Source of the DNA: a virus | Lineage: Duplodnaviria > Heunggongvirae > Uroviricota > Caudoviricetes | Reading direction: 5' to 3' (one strand) | IMG/VR virus record: IMGVR_UViG_2703718839_000008 | DNA length: 42,613 bases | Shown here: piece after piece, positions 26,897-31,827 of the stretch | How positions within the stretch are numbered: position 1 is the stretch's first letter | How the letters are laid out: every line of letters begins with the position of its first letter | Notes under the pieces: model-generated | Seen by the model: only the letters and a program-made list of their open reading frames with translations | Told to the model about the DNA's origin: nothing | Databases searched by the model: none | Program-made: the position numbers and the translations under genes

Positions 26897-27064
26897 ATGT
26901 TTGTGAAACCTGTTAAAGGGCGGTCAGTTCCTGACCCTGCCCGCGGCGACCTTTTGCCCGCCGAGGGGCGAAATGTTGATGAGAACAACTACTGGCTGCG
27001 CCGTGAAGCAGCGGGTGATATCCGGCGCGTGAATGAAAAGGTGAATACCGATGACGAGCTTTAA
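26897..27064 (+). CDS. Small DUF2635-like protein preceding the tail sheath, 55 aa
   Basis: MFVKPVKGRSVPDPARGDLLPAEGRNVDENNYWLRR; overlaps sheath start; below ORF-track cutoff. Confidence 0.45.
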   Translation: MFVKPVKGRSVPDPARGDLLPAEGRNVDENNYWLRREAAGDIRRVNEKVNTDDEL

Positions 27065-28544
27065 CACCATTCCGTCGAATACGCTGGTTCCGATTTTTTA
27101 TGCGGAAATGGATAACTCGGCGGCGAATACTGCACAGGACAGCGGAGCATCGCTGCTGATTGGTCATGCCAATAACGGTGCAGAGATTGTTGCCAACAGT
27201 CTGGTGCTGATGCCATCGGCAGACTATGCACGCCAGATTTGTGGTGCGGGAAGTCAGCTGGCGCGTATGGTCGAGGCTTATCGCCAGACTGACCCGTTTG
27301 GCGAGCTGTATGTGATTGCCGTTCCTGAATCCACAGGCGCGGCGGCAACAGTTACGCTGACGGTGACCGGGGCAGCAACCGAAACCGGCACGGTGAATGT
27401 TTATGTGGGACGTACCCGCGTGCAGGCACCGGTGACCAACGGCGATAACGTCGCGACGATTGCCAGCAGTATCAAAGATGCCATCAATGCCGTTCCGACC
27501 CTGCCGTTTACTGCCTCATCTTCGGCAGGCGTGGTCACACTGACCGCGCGTCATAAGGGGCTTTGCGGGAATGAAATTCCTGTCAGCCTCAATTACTACG
27601 GCTTTGGTGGGGGCGAAGTGCTGCCAGCGGGCGTACAGATTGCCGTGGCGACGGGTACCGCCGGAACGGGTGCTCCGGTTCTCACCGGCGCGGTGGCTGC
27701 AATGGCGGATGAGCCGTTTGATTATATCGGTCTGCCGTTCAACGACACGGCCTCCGTTAACACGCTGGTGACCGAGATGAACGATACCAGCGGTCGCTGG
27801 AGCTATGCGCGTCAGCTGTATGGTCATGTGTATACGGCAAAGATCGGCACGCTGTCAGAACTGGTGACCGCAGGTGACCAGTTTAACCAGCAGCACATTA
27901 CCCTGGCGGGGTACGAAAAAGAGACCCAGACGCCTGCCGACGAGCTGGCGGCAAGCCGTACCGCCCGCGCAGCGGTGTTTATTCGCAACGATCCGGCACG
28001 TCCCACGCAGACCGGTGAGCTGGTGGGTATGCTGCCTGCGCCGAAGGGGAAACGGTTCACGATGACCGAACAACAGACCCTGCTGTCTCATGGCGTGGCA
28101 ACGGCGTATGTCGAAAGCGGGGTGCTGCGCATTCAGCGTGATGTCACCACGTACAGGAAAAATGCTTACGGGGTTGCGGATAACAGCTACCTCGACAGCG
28201 AGACGCTGCATACCAGTGCGTATGTACTGCGCAAACTGAAATCCGTCATTACCAGTAAGTACGGGCGTCACAAGCTTGCCAGTGACGGTACCCGCTTTGG
28301 TCCCGGTCAGGCGATTGTCACCCCGGCGGTGATCAAAGGGGAACTGCTGGCAACCTACCGTCAGCTTGAGCGTGCGGGGATCGTGGAAAACTACGAACTG
28401 TTTAAGCAGTACCTGGTTGTGGAGCGTGATGCCAGCGATCCGAACCGCCTGAACACGCTGTTCCCGCCTGACTATGTTAACCAGTTGCGTGTTTTTGCCG
28501 TGGTTAACCAGTTCCGTCTTCAGTATTCAGAGGAGTCTGCATAA
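27051..28544 (+). CDS. Tail sheath protein (Mu L-like)
   Basis: 497 aa immediately upstream of tube and chaperone genes. Confidence 0.75.
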   Translation: MTSFNTIPSNTLVPIFYAEMDNSAANTAQDSGASLLIGHANNGAEIVANSLVLMPSADYARQICGAGSQLARMVEAYRQTDPFGELYVIAVPESTGAAATVTLTVTGAATETGTVNVYVGRTRVQAPVTNGDNVATIASSIKDAINAVPTLPFTASSSAGVVTLTARHKGLCGNEIPVSLNYYGFGGGEVLPAGVQIAVATGTAGTGAPVLTGAVAAMADEPFDYIGLPFNDTASVNTLVTEMNDTSGRWSYARQLYGHVYTAKIGTLSELVTAGDQFNQQHITLAGYEKETQTPADELAASRTARAAVFIRNDPARPTQTGELVGMLPAPKGKRFTMTEQQTLLSHGVATAYVESGVLRIQRDVTTYRKNAYGVADNSYLDSETLHTSAYVLRKLKSVITSKYGRHKLASDGTRFGPGQAIVTPAVIKGELLATYRQLERAGIVENYELFKQYLVVERDASDPNRLNTLFPPDYVNQLRVFAVVNQFRLQYSEESA

Positions 28545-28900
28545 TGGCCCGTATCGGGGGAACCTGTTATTTCAAAATTGACGGTCAGCAGCTATCGCTG
28601 ACCGGCGGCATTGAGGTGCCCATGAACAGGACGGTCAATGATGACATCATCGGCCTGGACGGTTCAGTGGACCGCAAGGAAACTCACCGTGCGCCTTATG
28701 TCAAAGGGACTTTCAAGGTGCCGAAGAATTTTCCGGTGAACAAAATCACCTCGTCTGATGAGATGACTATCACTGCCGAGCTGGCGAACGGTCAGGTCTA
28801 TGTACTGTCGTCTGCCTGGCTGCACGGCGAAGCGAACCATAATGCCGAAGAAGGCACGGTCGATCTTGAGTTCCACGGTGAAGAAGGGGATTACCAGTAA
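28544..28900 (+). CDS. Tail tube protein (Mu M-like)
   Basis: 118 aa following sheath. Confidence 0.7.
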   Translation: MARIGGTCYFKIDGQQLSLTGGIEVPMNRTVNDDIIGLDGSVDRKETHRAPYVKGTFKVPKNFPVNKITSSDEMTITAELANGQVYVLSSAWLHGEANHNAEEGTVDLEFHGEEGDYQ

Positions 28901-29169
28901 TGAAAGAGCTTGAGTTAAAGAAACCGATTACTGCTCATGGCGAGACACTCTCCGTACTGGAGTTTGATGAGCCCACCGGGAAGGATGTCCGCGAGCTGGG
29001 GTATCCCTACCAGATGAATCAGGATGAGTCCGTCAGACTTCTGGCGCATGTGGTGTCGAAATACATTGTGCGGCTGGCGAAAGTGCCGCAAAGCTCTGTC
29101 GACCAGATGTCTCCGGCAGACCTGAATGCAGCGGCGTGGCTTGTGGCTGGTTTTTTCCTCCAGGCCTGA
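28900..29169 (+). CDS. Tail assembly chaperone (short form); -1 frameshift product extends to 29318
   Basis: Conserved position before tape measure; slippery T_TTT_TTC near 3' end; -1 frame ORF 29136-29318 overlaps. Confidence 0.7.
   Translation: MKELELKKPITAHGETLSVLEFDEPTGKDVRELGYPYQMNQDESVRLLAHVVSKYIVRLAKVPQSSVDQMSPADLNAAAWLVAGFFLQA
29151..29157 (+). promoter_or_regulatory. Programmed -1 ribosomal frameshift slippery heptamer
   Basis: T TTT TTC in zero frame, 4 codons before the stop; -1 frame continues as FFPPGLTAEY... to 29318. Confidence 0.6.
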
Positions 29170-29310
29170 CGGCTGAATACCTCACTGATCGCTTCTTTGA
29201 CTGCGCCAGCTACTGGCGCATTAATCCCTTCGAATTGCTGAGTATGCCGATCAGTGAAATTCCCTTGCTGGTCAGTCAGGCAAACAGGATAGAGCAGGAG
29301 AAACGCACAC

Positions 29311-31143
29311 ATGGCTGAATTTGAGCTTAAGGCGTTGATCACCGGTGTCGACAGGCTTTCTCCCGCGCTGTCGAAAATGCAAAAGAAAATCCGGGGATTT
29401 AAACGCCAGGCGGAAGAAGCGTCACAGGGTGGGCTGGCGCTTGGGGGCGGATTGGCAGCGGGTCTGACGCTTTCCCTGAAATCTTATGCCGATCAGGAAA
29501 ACGCCGCCACCGGGCTGAAAGTCGCCATGATGGATGCGAACGGCGAGGTTGGAAAGAGCTTTCAGGACATCAATAAACTGGCTATTGGCCTGGGTAACCA
29601 GCTACCTGGTACAACGGCTGATTTCCAGAACATGATGCAGATGCTGGTGCGTCAGGGGATCCCGGCAGAAAACATTCTTGGCGGTGTGGGTAAAGCGACA
29701 GCTTATCTTGCGGTACAACTGAAAAAAACACCGGAAGCGGCTGCCGAGTTTGCCGCAAAGATGCAGGATGCTACCGGAACGGCGTCAGAAGACATGATGG
29801 GGCTGTTCGACACTATCCAGAAGGCGTTTTATCTGGGCGTTGACGATACCAACATGTTGTCCTTCTTCACTAAAACCAGCTCTGTTCTGAAGATGGTGAA
29901 CAAGGACGGTCTTCAGGCTGCACAGAGCCTTGCCCCCATCAGCGTCATGATGGATCAGATGGGGATGAACGGGGAGGCGGCAGGTAATGCCCTGCGAAAA
30001 GTTATCCAGTCCGGATTAAGTGTTAAGAAAATCAGGGACGTCAATAAAGTCATGGCCCGCCAGAAACTCGGGGTACAGCTCGATTTTACTGACGGCAAAG
30101 GAAGTTTTGGCGGTCTTGATAACATGTTTAAGCAACTGGCAAAGTTGCGAAAACTGACTGACGTTAAGCGAACTAATGTACTTAAGGCAATATTTGGTGA
30201 TGATGCCGAAACCATTCAGGTGGTCAATGCGCTGATCGATAAAGGAAAGGATGGTTACGATCAGATCCAGCAGAAGATGAATAAACAGGCCAGCCTGAAT
30301 AAACGTGTTCAGGCACAGCTTGGTACGTTGTCCAACCTGTGGGAGGCAATGACGGGGACCGCAACTAACGGCCTTGCAGCTATTGGCGGCGCATTTTCTG
30401 GTGACGCTAAAAATATCACGCAATGGCTGGGGGAGTTGGGGGAGAAATTCACGAAGTTTGCGGATCAAAATCCCCGGGTTATTCGCGGCGTCGTCGGGCT
30501 TGCTGCCGGTCTTGCGATTCTGAAACTGGGATTGATGGGCGTGGGCAGTGCCATCAGTATCGTCAGCAGGATCATGTCGATGACGCCGATTGGCATGATT
30601 GCGACGGCGATTGCCCTGGCTGCGGGATTAATTATCACTAACTGGGATGTTGTTGGACCTTATTTCAAGAAGCTCTGGGAAACCATTGGTCCTTATTTTG
30701 AGGTTGGCTGGGAACTCCTCAAGAAAGTTTTTGCCTGGTCGCCGCTGGGGATGGTGATCAATAACTGGGGACCGGTTGTTAAGTGGTTTCAGGATATGTG
30801 GGACAAGCTGAAGCCAATTATTGAGTGGTTTACTGACAGTTCCGGTGACACGGTCGATGCCATTAACTCTGCGCAGTGGGGCGCAGGTGCCTATGATGCT
30901 TATGGGACGGGAATACCGGCGCGGGGATACACACCTTACCCGGCGGTGGATCCGGCGCAGTCAAACAACGCCTCCGGTGCCACAGGCCCGAATCCCTTCA
31001 TGATAAACAAAGCTTCTGCGCCAAAAGTTGATGGTGAGATCAAGGTATCTTTTGTGAATATGCCACCAGGTATGCGGGTTATGGAAACGCGATCCAGCGG
31101 TATTGATGTCAGCCATGATGTTGGCTATACGCGGTTCAGGTAG
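29311..31143 (+). CDS. Tail tape measure protein
   Basis: 610 aa, helical, with Gly/Ala-rich and hydrophobic segments. Confidence 0.85.
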   Translation: MAEFELKALITGVDRLSPALSKMQKKIRGFKRQAEEASQGGLALGGGLAAGLTLSLKSYADQENAATGLKVAMMDANGEVGKSFQDINKLAIGLGNQLPGTTADFQNMMQMLVRQGIPAENILGGVGKATAYLAVQLKKTPEAAAEFAAKMQDATGTASEDMMGLFDTIQKAFYLGVDDTNMLSFFTKTSSVLKMVNKDGLQAAQSLAPISVMMDQMGMNGEAAGNALRKVIQSGLSVKKIRDVNKVMARQKLGVQLDFTDGKGSFGGLDNMFKQLAKLRKLTDVKRTNVLKAIFGDDAETIQVVNALIDKGKDGYDQIQQKMNKQASLNKRVQAQLGTLSNLWEAMTGTATNGLAAIGGAFSGDAKNITQWLGELGEKFTKFADQNPRVIRGVVGLAAGLAILKLGLMGVGSAISIVSRIMSMTPIGMIATAIALAAGLIITNWDVVGPYFKKLWETIGPYFEVGWELLKKVFAWSPLGMVINNWGPVVKWFQDMWDKLKPIIEWFTDSSGDTVDAINSAQWGAGAYDAYGTGIPARGYTPYPAVDPAQSNNASGATGPNPFMINKASAPKVDGEIKVSFVNMPPGMRVMETRSSGIDVSHDVGYTRFR

Positions 31144-31242
31144 TGTACAAAATGATTAATGTGTTTTTGTCTGGCATAATTTGGGTTTTCAACTTTAAGC
31201 AGTTAATATAATCACTCCTTACAAATGATTGAAGGGATGATT

Positions 31243-31737
31243 ATGCGTATCTTTGTGTTTTTTATATCTGCACTTTTATCTTTTAACTTGGCAGCGGAAG
31301 AGTGTAAGTTCAGCTTTAATGAGTCAGAATTAATCTCTTCTATAGGTATTGCACCAGTTAAGCAAGAGATAGTAAAGGATGAAGGAATAACTAAGCGTCA
31401 ATATGAATTCAGGAGAGAATTGTCTTTTGAAGAAATGCTTGGCGATGATGCTGATGAAAAATATGAGCCGCAGTTTTATATATCTGTTTATAATCCATCA
31501 TGTCCACAAAAGGTTATTATTTGGTTTTTCAAAGACAATAAAAACACACAAACTTTAAGTAATGAGGTCCTTGCTGGTAGAGCATTCAAGTATTTAACTG
31601 GTGTTAATGAAAGTATTTTTGAAAATAAAATGAAAAAGTTTTCAAAGGTACAGTCATTTGAATCCTTTGATGAAAGGACGGACTCTAAATTTATAAAGAG
31701 TGGTAATGTTTATTCCATTGATGTTCAACTCAGATAG
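31243..31737 (+). CDS. AT-rich moron encoding a secreted protein with N-terminal signal peptide, 164 aa
   Basis: MRIFVFFISALLSFNLAAEE signal peptide; much lower GC than flanking tail genes; own RBS, possible TATAAT upstream and own terminator. Confidence 0.6.
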   Translation: MRIFVFFISALLSFNLAAEECKFSFNESELISSIGIAPVKQEIVKDEGITKRQYEFRRELSFEEMLGDDADEKYEPQFYISVYNPSCPQKVIIWFFKDNKNTQTLSNEVLAGRAFKYLTGVNESIFENKMKKFSKVQSFESFDERTDSKFIKSGNVYSIDVQLR

Positions 31738-31754
31738 TAATTAAAAATATTAGG

Positions 31755-31813
31755 TTCCCGCCACATCTTCTGCGATGTAAATAACTGACAAAGCAGATTT
31801 GGCGGGTTTTTTG
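31755..31813 (+). terminator. Terminator after the moron
   Basis: cccgccacatc...gatttggcggg interrupted stem followed by TTTTTT. Confidence 0.55.
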
Positions 31814-31827
31814 TATCCGGAGTTTAT

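What the first reader, a model, noticed from the sequence alone, without database searches (positions are those of the whole stretch)
28900..29318. Programmed -1 frameshift in the tail assembly chaperone
The chaperone ORF ends four codons after a U_UUU_UUC heptamer (29151-29157). The -1 frame continues for 54 more codons up to the tape-measure start, the conserved arrangement for tail chaperone pairs (lambda G/GT, P2 E/E').
Basis: partly seen in the sequence, partly recalled or inferred. Interest (0 to 1): 0.4.

Follow-up and report, generated by a model that had tools for sequence, protein, structure and literature searches.

The report
Tail chaperone programmed -1 frameshift
An SfV-like E. 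coli/Shigella prophage makes its tail-assembly chaperone in a short and a long form by letting a few ribosomes slip back one base on UUUUUUC; this is the familiar lambda G/GT and P2 E/E+E' trick, found here in a lineage whose public records do not annotate it.

Summary
T_TTT_TTC lies at 29151-29157 in the X_XXY_YYZ register (GGT TTT TTC). The 89-aa chaperone (PF10109) stops at 29167-69. The -1 frame then runs 53 codons to a TGA at 29316-18, which overlaps the tape-measure ATG (29311) by 8 nt, as in P2 E+E'/T.

The heptamer alone is not above chance, but the comparative evidence is decisive.
- In 45 non-redundant relatives (mean 75% nt identity), GGT TTT TTC is invariant while the neighbouring Ala codon uses all four synonyms.
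- There are no indels, and codon periodicity switches to the -1 frame downstream of the site.
- 35 of 45 have no start codon for the -1 ORF.
- Clades at about 40% aa identity keep T_TTT_TTY at the homologous ..FF site, with a homologous 52-55-aa extension (55 of 58 loci).
- P2 has its annotated -1 frameshift site in TTTTTTG at the same position.

This is a new, unannotated member of a known kind, so interest is modest.

One extra finding remains unexplained. An 8-bp hairpin at 29202-29220, 45 nt downstream, has frozen synonymous sites in 45 of 45 relatives. It is too far away to be a canonical stimulator.

The parts
28900..29169 (+). Short tail assembly chaperone ('G/E-like'), 89 aa, 0-frame product
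   Evidence: ORF. PF10109 Phage_TAC_7 E=1.9e-16. phrog_166 'tail protein' E=7e-24. Lies between the tube and tape-measure genes.
29151..29157 (+). Slippery heptamer T_TTT_TTC in X_XXY_YYZ register (GGT TTT TTC)
   Evidence: Invariant, including synonymous sites, in 45 of 45 representatives, while the preceding Ala codon uses GCT/GCC/GCG/GCA 11/13/8/13. U_UUU_UUC belongs to the efficient H_HH.U_UU.Y class in E. coli.
29167..29169 (+). 0-frame stop codon (TGA) of the short product, fourth codon after the heptamer
   Evidence: The position is conserved (TGA, TAA or TAG) in the close family.
29157..29318 (+). -1-frame extension ('T/E'-like' domain): 53 codons (PPGLTAEY...EKRTHG) plus TGA at 29316-18
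   Evidence: Third-position substitution periodicity is in the -1 frame (0.445 against 0.224 and 0.129). The motif A.(Y/F)W(R/K).(N/D)P...S......A.RI is shared with relatives at 40% identity. Collinear with P2 E'. Public pipelines call it a separate ORF (phrog_32181).
29202..29220 (+). Conserved hairpin UGCGCCAG-CUA-CUGGCGCA (8-bp stem, 3-nt loop) inside the extension, 45 nt 3' of the heptamer; role unknown
   Evidence: All 8 pairs are kept in 45 of 45 representatives. The synonymous sites of TGC, GCC, TAC and CGC are frozen while the first loop base and the flanking third positions vary. The only stem change gives G.U. dG is -14.2 kcal/mol, z=-4.7. No Rfam match.
29296..29313 (+). Shine-Dalgarno (AGGAG, 29296-29300) and ATG (29311) of the tape-measure gene, overlapped by the extension's stop (ATGGCTGA)
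   Evidence: P2 has the same 8-nt overlap (ATGAGTAA).
29311..31143 (+). Tape measure protein, 610 aa (presumed client of the chaperone)
   Evidence: PF10145 PhageMin_Tail E=1.3e-26.
28544..28900 (+). Tail tube protein, 118 aa (presumed partner of the extension domain)
   Evidence: PF10618 Tail_tube E=3.3e-33.
27051..28544 (+). Tail sheath protein, 497 aa (context: contractile, Mu-type tail module)
   Evidence: PF04984, PF17482 and PF17481. 98.5% nt identity to SfV, whose record notes 'similar to phage Mu GpL'.

Best explanation
This is a programmed -1 ribosomal frameshift of the lambda G/GT and P2 E/E+E' type. Most ribosomes translating the chaperone gene (28900-29169) read GGU UUU UUC CUC CAG GCC UGA and release an 89-aa chaperone. 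A minority slip back one base while UUU and UUC occupy the P and A sites. Both tRNA-Phe re-pair with UUU UUU, decoding resumes at CCU (29157), and 53 more residues are added. The result is a 139-aa fusion (...LVAGFF-PPGLTAEY...KRTHG) that ends 8 nt inside the tape-measure gene.

By analogy with lambda, the shared N-terminal domain coats the tape-measure protein. The frameshift-only C-terminal domain would recruit the tube protein, so a fixed high ratio of short to long product is set by the slip frequency.

Shown here: the signal, its register, the purifying selection on it and on the -1 frame, the absence of an independent start, and homology of both halves with frameshifting relatives. Inferred, not shown: that the slip is ribosomal, its frequency, and the roles of the two products.
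For: - **Anatomy:**
- **Gene identity and position:** PF10109 between the tube and tape-measure genes.
- **Close family.** 45 representatives below 96% identity to each other (mean 75%) show GGT/TTT/TTC in 45 of 45. Flanking third-position diversity is 0.57-0.76. There are no indels over 431 nt.
- **Synonymous-site suppression.** The lowest 5-codon windows of third-position diversity are at the slip site and the overlap.
- **Frame switch.** Upstream diversity by codon position is 0.17/0.10/0.53 in frame 0. Downstream it is 0.22/0.13/0.45 in frame -1.
- **No independent initiation.** 35 of 45 relatives have no ATG, GTG or TTG in the -1 ORF upstream of the site, and 44 of 45 have none in the 20 codons after it.
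- **Distant clades.** tblastn finds both halves in two frames in ST64B, SfIV, phiP27, F1055 and BgVeeders33. 55 of 58 distinct loci have in-register T_TTT_TTT or T_TTT_TTC with a 52-54-codon extension. The preceding codon always ends in T although its amino acid differs (GGT, CGT, AAT).
- **P2.** The annotated -1 translational frameshift is at GGT TTT TTG, at the equivalent ..VGF(L/F) position, with a 57-aa extension and the same overlap with gene T. The profile alignment is collinear over 119 columns, E=5.9e-4.
- **Motif efficiency.** U_UUU_UUC is a functional E. coli shift motif: 0.12% bare, 0.9% with the IS911 stimulator, 7.6% with the IS3 stimulator.
- **Literature.** The G/GT frameshift is conserved in long-tailed phages, and the ratio is critical in lambda.
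Against: - There is no experimental evidence for this lineage, and none of the ten annotated public records inspected for its relatives joins the two ORFs; an eleventh, phage IPK, carries no annotation.
- No canonical stimulator was found. There is no SD-like sequence upstream, and no conserved structure 5-9 nt downstream.
- The bare heptamer gives only about 0.1% in a reporter, so the real frequency is unknown.
- The extension does not reach Pfam PF06528 (P2 GpE), whereas P2's own extension does. Similarity to P2 over the whole fusion is weak (hhalign probability 29%).
- The data cannot separate ribosomal from transcriptional slippage.
Confidence: 0.88

Rival explanations
1. Transcriptional slippage. 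RNA polymerase stutters on the T6 run and adds one U to a fraction of mRNAs. Standard translation of those mRNAs then yields the same GFF-PPGL fusion.
For: The signal is a homopolymer (T6 here, T7 in the ST64B-like clade). Sharma et al. note that U7 and A7 are avoided in all three frames, possibly because of transcriptional slippage. The conserved T at the end of the preceding codon lengthens the run as well as completing the heptamer. The predicted peptide is identical under either mechanism (direct reading).
Against: From my own knowledge, productive bacterial transcriptional slippage normally needs runs of about 8-9 or more, so T6 is short. The homologous P2 site is annotated as a translational frameshift, and the family-wide phenomenon is attributed to ribosomal frameshifting. 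U_UUU_UUC supports ribosomal -1 shifting in E. coli.
Confidence: 0.06
2. Two separate genes. The -1 ORF (29136-29318, GTG start) is translated on its own as a 60-aa protein, as some pipelines annotate it.
For: The ORF finder lists a 60-aa GTG ORF. Phage vB_EcoM-689R6 annotates it as a hypothetical protein. There is a PHROG for it (phrog_32181, E=2e-40).
Against: The GTG has no Shine-Dalgarno sequence (one search prints the upstream 30 nt). 35 of 45 relatives have no start codon anywhere in the -1 ORF before the conserved part. The same domain in P2 is made only as a frameshift extension.
Confidence: 0.02
3. No recoding. The heptamer and the open -1 frame are incidental or vestigial, and only the 89-aa product matters.
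For: TTTTTTY is no more frequent than chance in the window. 3 of 80 near-identical copies carry a damaged heptamer (GGG TTT TTC).
Against: Synonymous sites at the heptamer are frozen. The -1 frame is under purifying selection with correct codon periodicity and no indels. It is conserved as a protein domain down to about 40% identity.
Confidence: 0.02

Closest known systems
Bacteriophage P2 gpE / gpE+E' (-1 frameshift at TTTTTTG in the FETUD operon)
   Same: - Same Pfam family for the N-terminal part (PF10109).
- The heptamer is at the equivalent ..VGF(L/F) position in the context GGT TTT TTN.
- The extension is of similar length (57 against 53 aa), with a shared (F/Y)(H/W)W..P.EL..M.(L/I)(T/S)E(L/I)....A.R pattern.
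- The stop overlaps the tape-measure ATG by 8 nt.
- The gene sits between the tube and tape-measure genes of a contractile tail.
- Both families have an invariant stem-loop 45-50 nt downstream of the heptamer.
   Different: - The last base of the heptamer is C, not G.
- The 0-frame stop comes after 3 sense codons, against 6 in P2.
- The extension does not reach PF06528, whereas P2's does at 2e-22.
- Overall similarity is weak (24% identity, hhalign E=5.9e-4).
- The rest of the tail module is Mu-like (gpL, gpM, gpN and gpP homologues), not P2-like.
Bacteriophage lambda gpG / gpGT
   Same: The logic is the same. The chaperone gene lies directly upstream of the tape-measure gene. A low-frequency -1 slip near its 3' end gives a C-terminally extended form. 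Neither the ratio-setting role nor any strong RNA stimulator is encoded separately.
   Different: There is no sequence similarity. Lambda uses G_GGA_AAG with tRNA-Lys, in a non-contractile tail. In lambda the T extension is followed by gene H rather than overlapping it in this 8-nt geometry (own knowledge).
Bacteriophage Mu gp41 (Mup41) tail assembly chaperone
   Same: It occupies the same position in a homologous tail module: sheath L, tube M, gp41, tape measure gp42, then N and P. It is also reported to need a frameshift.
   Different: Mu is reported to shift by -2, and it has no in-register X_XXY_YYZ heptamer. The Mu protein is 144 aa and shows no significant similarity to this one apart from a 29-column match in the extension (E=0.035).
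ST64B Sb15 / SfIV gp12 / phiP27 L46 chaperones
   Same: These are true homologues at about 40% aa identity, in the same module. They carry an in-register T-run at the same ..FF position and a homologous 52-aa extension ending at the tape-measure start.
   Different: The heptamer is T_TTT_TTT. The 0 frame runs on for 22 codons past the site, giving a long dual-coding stretch. The 29202-type hairpin is absent and there is no excess folding energy (z=+0.9).

Membership tests
Pfam PF10109 Phage_TAC_7 (tail assembly chaperone E / 41 / 14) | Sequence match to the family HMM above the gathering score | tested here: met
   60.3 bits against a cut-off of 25, E=1.9e-16, covering profile positions 2-78 of 79.
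G/GT-type tail chaperone frameshift pair (Xu, Hendrix and Duda 2004) | Gene located between the major tail (tube) gene and the tape-measure gene | tested here: met
   Tube 28544-28900 (PF10618), chaperone 28900-29169, tape measure 29311-31143 (PF10145).
G/GT-type tail chaperone frameshift pair (Xu, Hendrix and Duda 2004) | [quoted passage not shown] | tested here: met
   T_TTT_TTC lies 4 codons before the stop. The -1 ORF has 53 codons and ends 8 nt inside the tape-measure gene. There is no conserved start codon.
G/GT-type tail chaperone frameshift pair (Xu, Hendrix and Duda 2004) | Arrangement conserved in relatives despite sequence divergence | tested here: met
   45 of 45 close representatives, 55 of 58 distant loci, and P2-like phages.
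G/GT-type tail chaperone frameshift pair (Xu, Hendrix and Duda 2004) | Both products actually made, at a fixed ratio, and both required for tail assembly | not testable with these tools
   Needs a western blot, reporter or genetics. The only support here is by analogy with lambda and P2.
Pfam PF06528 Phage_P2_GpE (the E' extension) | Sequence match of the frameshift extension to the family HMM | tested here: not met
   No hit at E<=10 for this extension or for those of ST64B, BgVeeders33 and YeP1. P2's own extension scores 78.7 bits, E=2e-22. There is only a weak collinear profile match to P2 E+E'.
Canonical bacterial -1 PRF cassette (dnaX / IS3 type) | X_XXY_YYZ heptamer in the 0-frame register | tested here: met
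   GGT TTT TTC. The motif class H_HH.U_UU.Y is efficient in E. coli.
Canonical bacterial -1 PRF cassette (dnaX / IS3 type) | Stimulatory hairpin or pseudoknot starting 5-9 nt (rarely 12-15 nt) 3' of the heptamer, and/or an SD-like element 6-17 nt 5' of it | tested here: inconclusive
   In the window a 7-bp long-range stem (29164-70 with 29275-81) starts 6 nt after the heptamer and closes a domain of -46.5 kcal/mol (z=-3.0). Its conservation is explained by coding constraints and it shows no covariation. The only structure under independent selection is 45 nt away. No SD-like sequence is visible upstream.
Mu-type (-2) chaperone frameshift | Extension lies in the +1/-2 frame, with no X_XXY_YYZ heptamer | tested here: not met
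   Here the extension is in the -1 frame with a canonical heptamer. In Mu the open frame reaching gp42 is +1/-2 (literature).

The most novel reading that the evidence does not exclude
The invariant hairpin at 29202-29220, 45 nt downstream of the slip site, may be a functional cis-element of the frameshift cassette, as may the analogous invariant stem-loop about 50 nt downstream of TTTTTTG in P2-like phages. It lies in the stretch that about 99% of ribosomes never enter. It could be a distal modulator of slip frequency, for example by pausing an already shifted ribosome so that the next one queues on the heptamer. Or it could be an RNA-stability or processing barrier that sets sheath/tube/chaperone output against tape-measure output. 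Either would explain why native P2-type sites are reported to shift far more often than the bare heptamers do in reporters.
Probability: 0.2. Interest if true: 0.55.

Novelty: new member of a known kind. Interest (0 to 1): 0.25.

Why it matters
For annotation: SfV, SfI, SfII, EPP-1, AH07 and several hundred E. coli, Shigella, Citrobacter, Edwardsiella and Pantoea prophage copies carry this chaperone (414 to 560 relatives confirmed in each IMG/VR scan). In the annotated records inspected it appears as a lone 89-aa 'tail protein', sometimes followed by an orphan 60-aa 'hypothetical protein'. The essential 139-aa fusion is missing, and PHROGs has a family of unknown function (phrog_32181) that is really the frameshift extension.

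For biology: this adds a well-sampled clade showing that a Mu-type tail module can carry a P2-type -1 signal rather than Mu's -2 signal. It also shows that the chaperone is exchanged together with the tape measure, not with the tube. The frozen downstream hairpin gives a concrete, mutable target for asking what sets frameshift efficiency at U6N sites that lack a classical stimulator.

Tried and rejected
1. **Canonical stimulator.** I folded 29151-29270 and 29158-29290, ran RNAalifold on 11 sequences and on 45 sequences, and scanned for inverted repeats. The window has nested stems I7, I4 and I5 with z about -3. Only the inner hairpin I5 survives across relatives. I4 is broken in the Pantoea clade despite two compensatory pairs, and the conservation of I7 is explained by coding. 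A proven stimulator is therefore rejected.
2. **Rfam and terminator scans** found nothing.
3. **'Fused' 137-139-aa proteins in the protein database** (P0001-P0006) looked like natural in-frame versions. They are indel-ridden single-contig assemblies, so they were rejected as evidence.
4. **Pfam and PDB searches with the extension or the fusion** gave no hit.
5. **Mu as comparator** showed no significant similarity.
6. **Literature.** No accessible paper mentions a frameshift in SfV-type phages. Xu et al. 2004 and Christie et al. 2002 are not held, so I could not check whether SfV is in their lists.
7. **CCUCC after the heptamer pairing with the tape-measure SD GGAG** is only 4 bp, and both partners are constrained for other reasons. 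I did not pursue it.
8. **ST64B-like clade.** I searched for an equivalent hairpin and found no clear one.
Full report
**What the window is.** The region belongs to an SfV/SfI/SfII-type temperate myovirus or prophage of E. coli and Shigella. Positions 28400-29500 are 98.4-98.8% identical to phages vB_EcoM-689R6, SfV, SfII, SKA5 and SfI. The left 25 kb is a lambdoid early region with a head module like those of vB_EcoM-720R4 and SfV. The local gene order is:
- sheath, 27051-28544 (PF04984, PF17482, PF17481);
- tube, 28544-28900 (PF10618);
- an 89-aa ORF, 28900-29169, matching PF10109 'Phage tail assembly chaperone proteins, E, or 41 or 14' (E=1.9e-16);
- tape measure, 29311-31143 (PF10145);
- an inserted ORF;
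- a DNA-circularisation-like gene (PF07157) and a Mu gpP-like baseplate hub.

**Checking the observation.** The sequence reads ...GCT GGT TTT TTC CTC CAG GCC TGA. T_TTT_TTC occupies 29151-29157, with its first T at the third position of the Gly codon. That is the X_XXY_YYZ register needed for tandem -1 re-pairing. The 0-frame stop is at 29167-69. Re-reading C29157 gives CCT CCA GGC CTG..., which is 53 sense codons ending at TGA 29316-18. The -1 stop overlaps the tape-measure ATG (29311) in the octamer ATGGCTGA.

The heptamer alone is not above chance: 25 TTTTTTY in the window against 22.7 expected. However, a -1 frame open for at least 53 codons occurs at only 6.4% of positions inside + strand ORFs. 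This is also the only in-register slippery heptamer placed in the last few codons of an ORF whose -1 frame bridges to the next gene.

**Comparative evidence, close family.** Genome and IMG/VR scans gave 221 loci and 135 distinct 431-nt sequences. These reduce to 45 representatives below 96% identity to each other (mean pairwise identity 75%, minimum 61%).
- All 45 representatives (of the 132 indel-free sequences) align without a single indel from the chaperone ATG to the tape-measure start.
- GGT, TTT and TTC are each 45 of 45. The adjacent Ala codon is GCT/GCC/GCG/GCA at 11/13/8/13, and flanking third positions have diversity 0.57-0.76.
- The three lowest 5-codon windows of third-position diversity in the whole gene are at the slip site and overlap.
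- Upstream of the site, substitutions peak at frame-0 third positions (0.17/0.10/0.53). Downstream of the 0-frame stop they peak at -1-frame third positions (0.22/0.13/0.45). So the -1 frame is translated and under purifying selection.
- 35 of 45 representatives have no ATG, GTG or TTG in the -1 ORF between its upstream stop and the heptamer, and 44 of 45 have none in the next 20 codons. The extension can therefore only be reached from the chaperone frame.
- The window's own GTG at 29136, which ORF finders and one GenBank record use, has no Shine-Dalgarno sequence and is not conserved.

**Comparative evidence, distant relatives.** tblastn with the conceptual fusion finds both halves, in two frames, in ST64B, SfIV, phiP27, 118970_sal3, F1055 and BgVeeders33 at 39-44% identity. 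It also finds the extension in YeP1-3. In each, an in-register T_TTT_TTT or T_TTT_TTC sits at the homologous ..(G/R/N)FF position. The -1 frame then runs 52-55 codons, ending just before or a few nucleotides inside the tape-measure gene. In two further IMG/VR scans, 55 of 58 distinct loci show this arrangement. The codon before the run always ends in T although it encodes Gly, Arg or Asn. The extensions share A.(Y/F)W(R/K).(N/D)P ... S ... A.RI.

P2 is the reference case. Its record annotates E, E+E' and a 'site of -1 translational frameshift'. It has GGT TTT TTG at the equivalent ..VGFL position, a 57-aa extension and the same 8-nt overlap with T (ATGAGTAA). A profile of the present family aligns collinearly with P2 E+E' over 119 columns, including the extension, but weakly (E=5.9e-4, probability 29%). 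The extension does not reach Pfam PF06528, which P2's extension hits at 2e-22.

Mu, whose tail module is otherwise the closest, has no such heptamer. Its open frame leading to gp42 is +1/-2, in line with the reported -2 shift. So this is a Mu-type tail carrying a P2-type recoding signal.

**Mechanism.** The best-supported reading is tandem -1 slippage of the two tRNA-Phe from UUU-UUC to UUU-UUU. In E. coli, U_UUU_UUC belongs to the efficient H_HH.U_UU.Y class. Reporter values are 0.12% without a stimulator, 0.9% with the IS911 signals and 7.6% with the IS3 pseudoknot.

From the lambda work summarised by Atkins et al., the short form and the shared part of the long form bind the tape measure. 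The frameshift-only domain binds the tube subunit. The ratio, about 30:1 in lambda, is critical, and P2-type sites are reported to shift 2-3 times more often than lambda. These functional roles are inferred here, not shown.

Ribosomal and transcriptional slippage cannot be separated from sequence, and they give the same peptide. I rate transcriptional slippage low because T6 is short and the P2 homologue is annotated as translational.

**Stimulators.** I found no SD-like element upstream. The window has three nested inverted repeats:
- 29164-70 with 29275-81, starting 6 nt after the heptamer;
- 29182-91 with 29248-57;
- 29202-09 with 29213-20.

Together they fold into one domain of -46.5 kcal/mol (z=-3.0). 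Across the 45 representatives the outer stem is kept only to the extent that coding constraints explain, and the middle stem is broken in the Pantoea clade. RNAalifold on the 45 representatives retains only the inner hairpin. A classical stimulator 5-9 nt downstream is therefore not demonstrated. Lynch et al. report no predicted hairpins within 60 bp downstream in three P2-like Burkholderia phages, and say this was expected from the absence of such structures in P2 E+E'.

**The unexpected part: the inner hairpin.** The hairpin UGCGCCAG-NUA-CUGGCGCA (29202-29220) codes for C-A-S-Y-W-R in the -1 frame.
- All eight pairs are kept in 45 of 45 representatives.
- The synonymous third positions of TGC, GCC, TAC and CGC have diversity 0-0.09, against a gene-wide mean of 0.48.
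- The first loop base (C, T or A) and the flanking third positions vary freely (0.48-0.58).
- The only stem substitution, C to U in 2 of 45, keeps a G.U pair.
- It is the fourth-lowest 5-codon window in the gene, after the three at the slip site. A permutation test gives P=0.04 for a window that low anywhere.
- It is stable (-14.2 kcal/mol, z=-4.7), unique in the window, absent from Rfam, and has no U-tail.

P2-like phages have an analogous feature. Invariant blocks GATGACCTGATGGCGGA and CACTGGCCGCCATCAGA form a 10-bp stem about 50 nt downstream of TTTTTTG. That stem is 95.7% paired in seven phages down to 66% identity, but with no covariation. The ST64B-like clade shows nothing comparable.

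At 45 nt the hairpin is far outside known spacer ranges. It lies in RNA that nearly all ribosomes leave untranslated. Possible roles are a distal effect on slipping, a barrier for RNA decay or processing that uncouples sheath/tube/chaperone output from tape-measure output, or something at the DNA level. None of these is tested, so I report the hairpin as unexplained.

**Public annotation and novelty.** Of the eleven relatives' records I inspected, phage IPK carries no annotation. None of the other ten (SfV RefSeq, vB_EcoM-689R6, EPP-1, AH07, SfIV, ST64B, phiP27, BgVeeders33, YeP1 and Mu) joins the two ORFs. P2, PSP3 and Midge do. PHROGs holds the extension as a family of unknown function. The apparent full-length fusions in the protein database are assembly artefacts. 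A few genomes do encode the fusion in frame, through an extra G or an extra T.

I could not read Xu et al. 2004 or Christie et al. 2002, so I cannot exclude that SfV already appears in their lists. Either way, the phenomenon is a textbook one. This is a new and well-supported member of a known kind, and interest is modest apart from the hairpin.

Noticed in passing
window 29202-29220: An 8-bp hairpin (UGCGCCAG-CUA-CUGGCGCA) sits inside the frameshift extension, 45 nt 3' of the heptamer. Its stem is invariant and its synonymous sites are frozen in 45 of 45 diverged relatives, while the loop and the flanking third positions vary. It is not in Rfam and is not a terminator. Its function is unknown.
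   Followed up: partly
window 29164-29281 (arms 29164-70/29275-81 and 29182-91/29248-57): Two further perfect inverted repeats (7 and 10 nt) nest around the hairpin. The whole domain folds at -46.5 kcal/mol (z=-3.0), and its base lies 6 nt after the heptamer. The stems are not supported by covariation in relatives.
   Followed up: yes
L025 (P2) 2236-2278; alignment A5 columns 87-129: P2-like phages have an invariant 10-bp stem-loop about 50 nt downstream of their TTTTTTG slip site, over the homologous FHW motif of E'. It is 95.7% paired in 7 phages, with no covariation. This parallels the hairpin in the window.
   Followed up: partly
window 31150-31820: A low-GC island (29-36% against about 54%) lies between the tape-measure gene and the DNA-circularisation-like gene. 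It holds a 170-aa ORF (31225-31737) with a signal-peptide-like N-terminus, matching phrog_8976 of unknown function. A terminator-like hairpin follows at 31803-31819. It looks like a moron.
   Followed up: partly
window about 28928-28976: There is a mosaic junction here. Nucleotide identity to SfIV (97%) and to ST64B, phiP27 and YeP1 (74-77%) covers the end of the sheath gene and the tube gene, and stops within the first 30-80 nt of the chaperone gene. Their chaperone is only about 40% identical, and their tape-measure genes gave no nucleotide match in the part searched, so the chaperone appears to be exchanged together with the tape measure.
   Followed up: partly
window 29311-29318: The extension's stop overlaps the tape-measure start in the octamer ATGGCTGA. 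P2-like phages have the same 8-nt geometry (ATGAGTAA), which suggests that termination of the long form is coupled to tape-measure initiation.
   Followed up: partly
L106/L107 at about 845-860; L242 at about 845-860; proteins P0001-P0006: A few public genomes encode the predicted fusion in frame: an extra G before the T6 run (GCT GGG TTT TTT CCT CCA), or a T8 run in an ST64B-like copy. The 107-139-aa 'fusions' in the protein database are indel-ridden assemblies. 3 of 80 near-identical copies have a damaged heptamer (2 lost the first T, giving GGG TTT TTC; 1 has a G inserted before the T-run and a C lost after it).
   Followed up: partly
window 29157-29162 and 29297-29300: The CCUCC immediately after the heptamer is complementary to the GGAG of the tape-measure Shine-Dalgarno sequence 140 nt downstream. 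The pairing is kept in 42-45 of 45 relatives, but both sites are constrained for other reasons and the helix is only 4 bp.
   Followed up: no
window 29136-29318: Public pipelines annotate the -1 ORF as a separate 60-aa hypothetical protein (vB_EcoM-689R6), and PHROGs has a family for it (phrog_32181, unknown function). This is an annotation artefact of the frameshift.
   Followed up: yes
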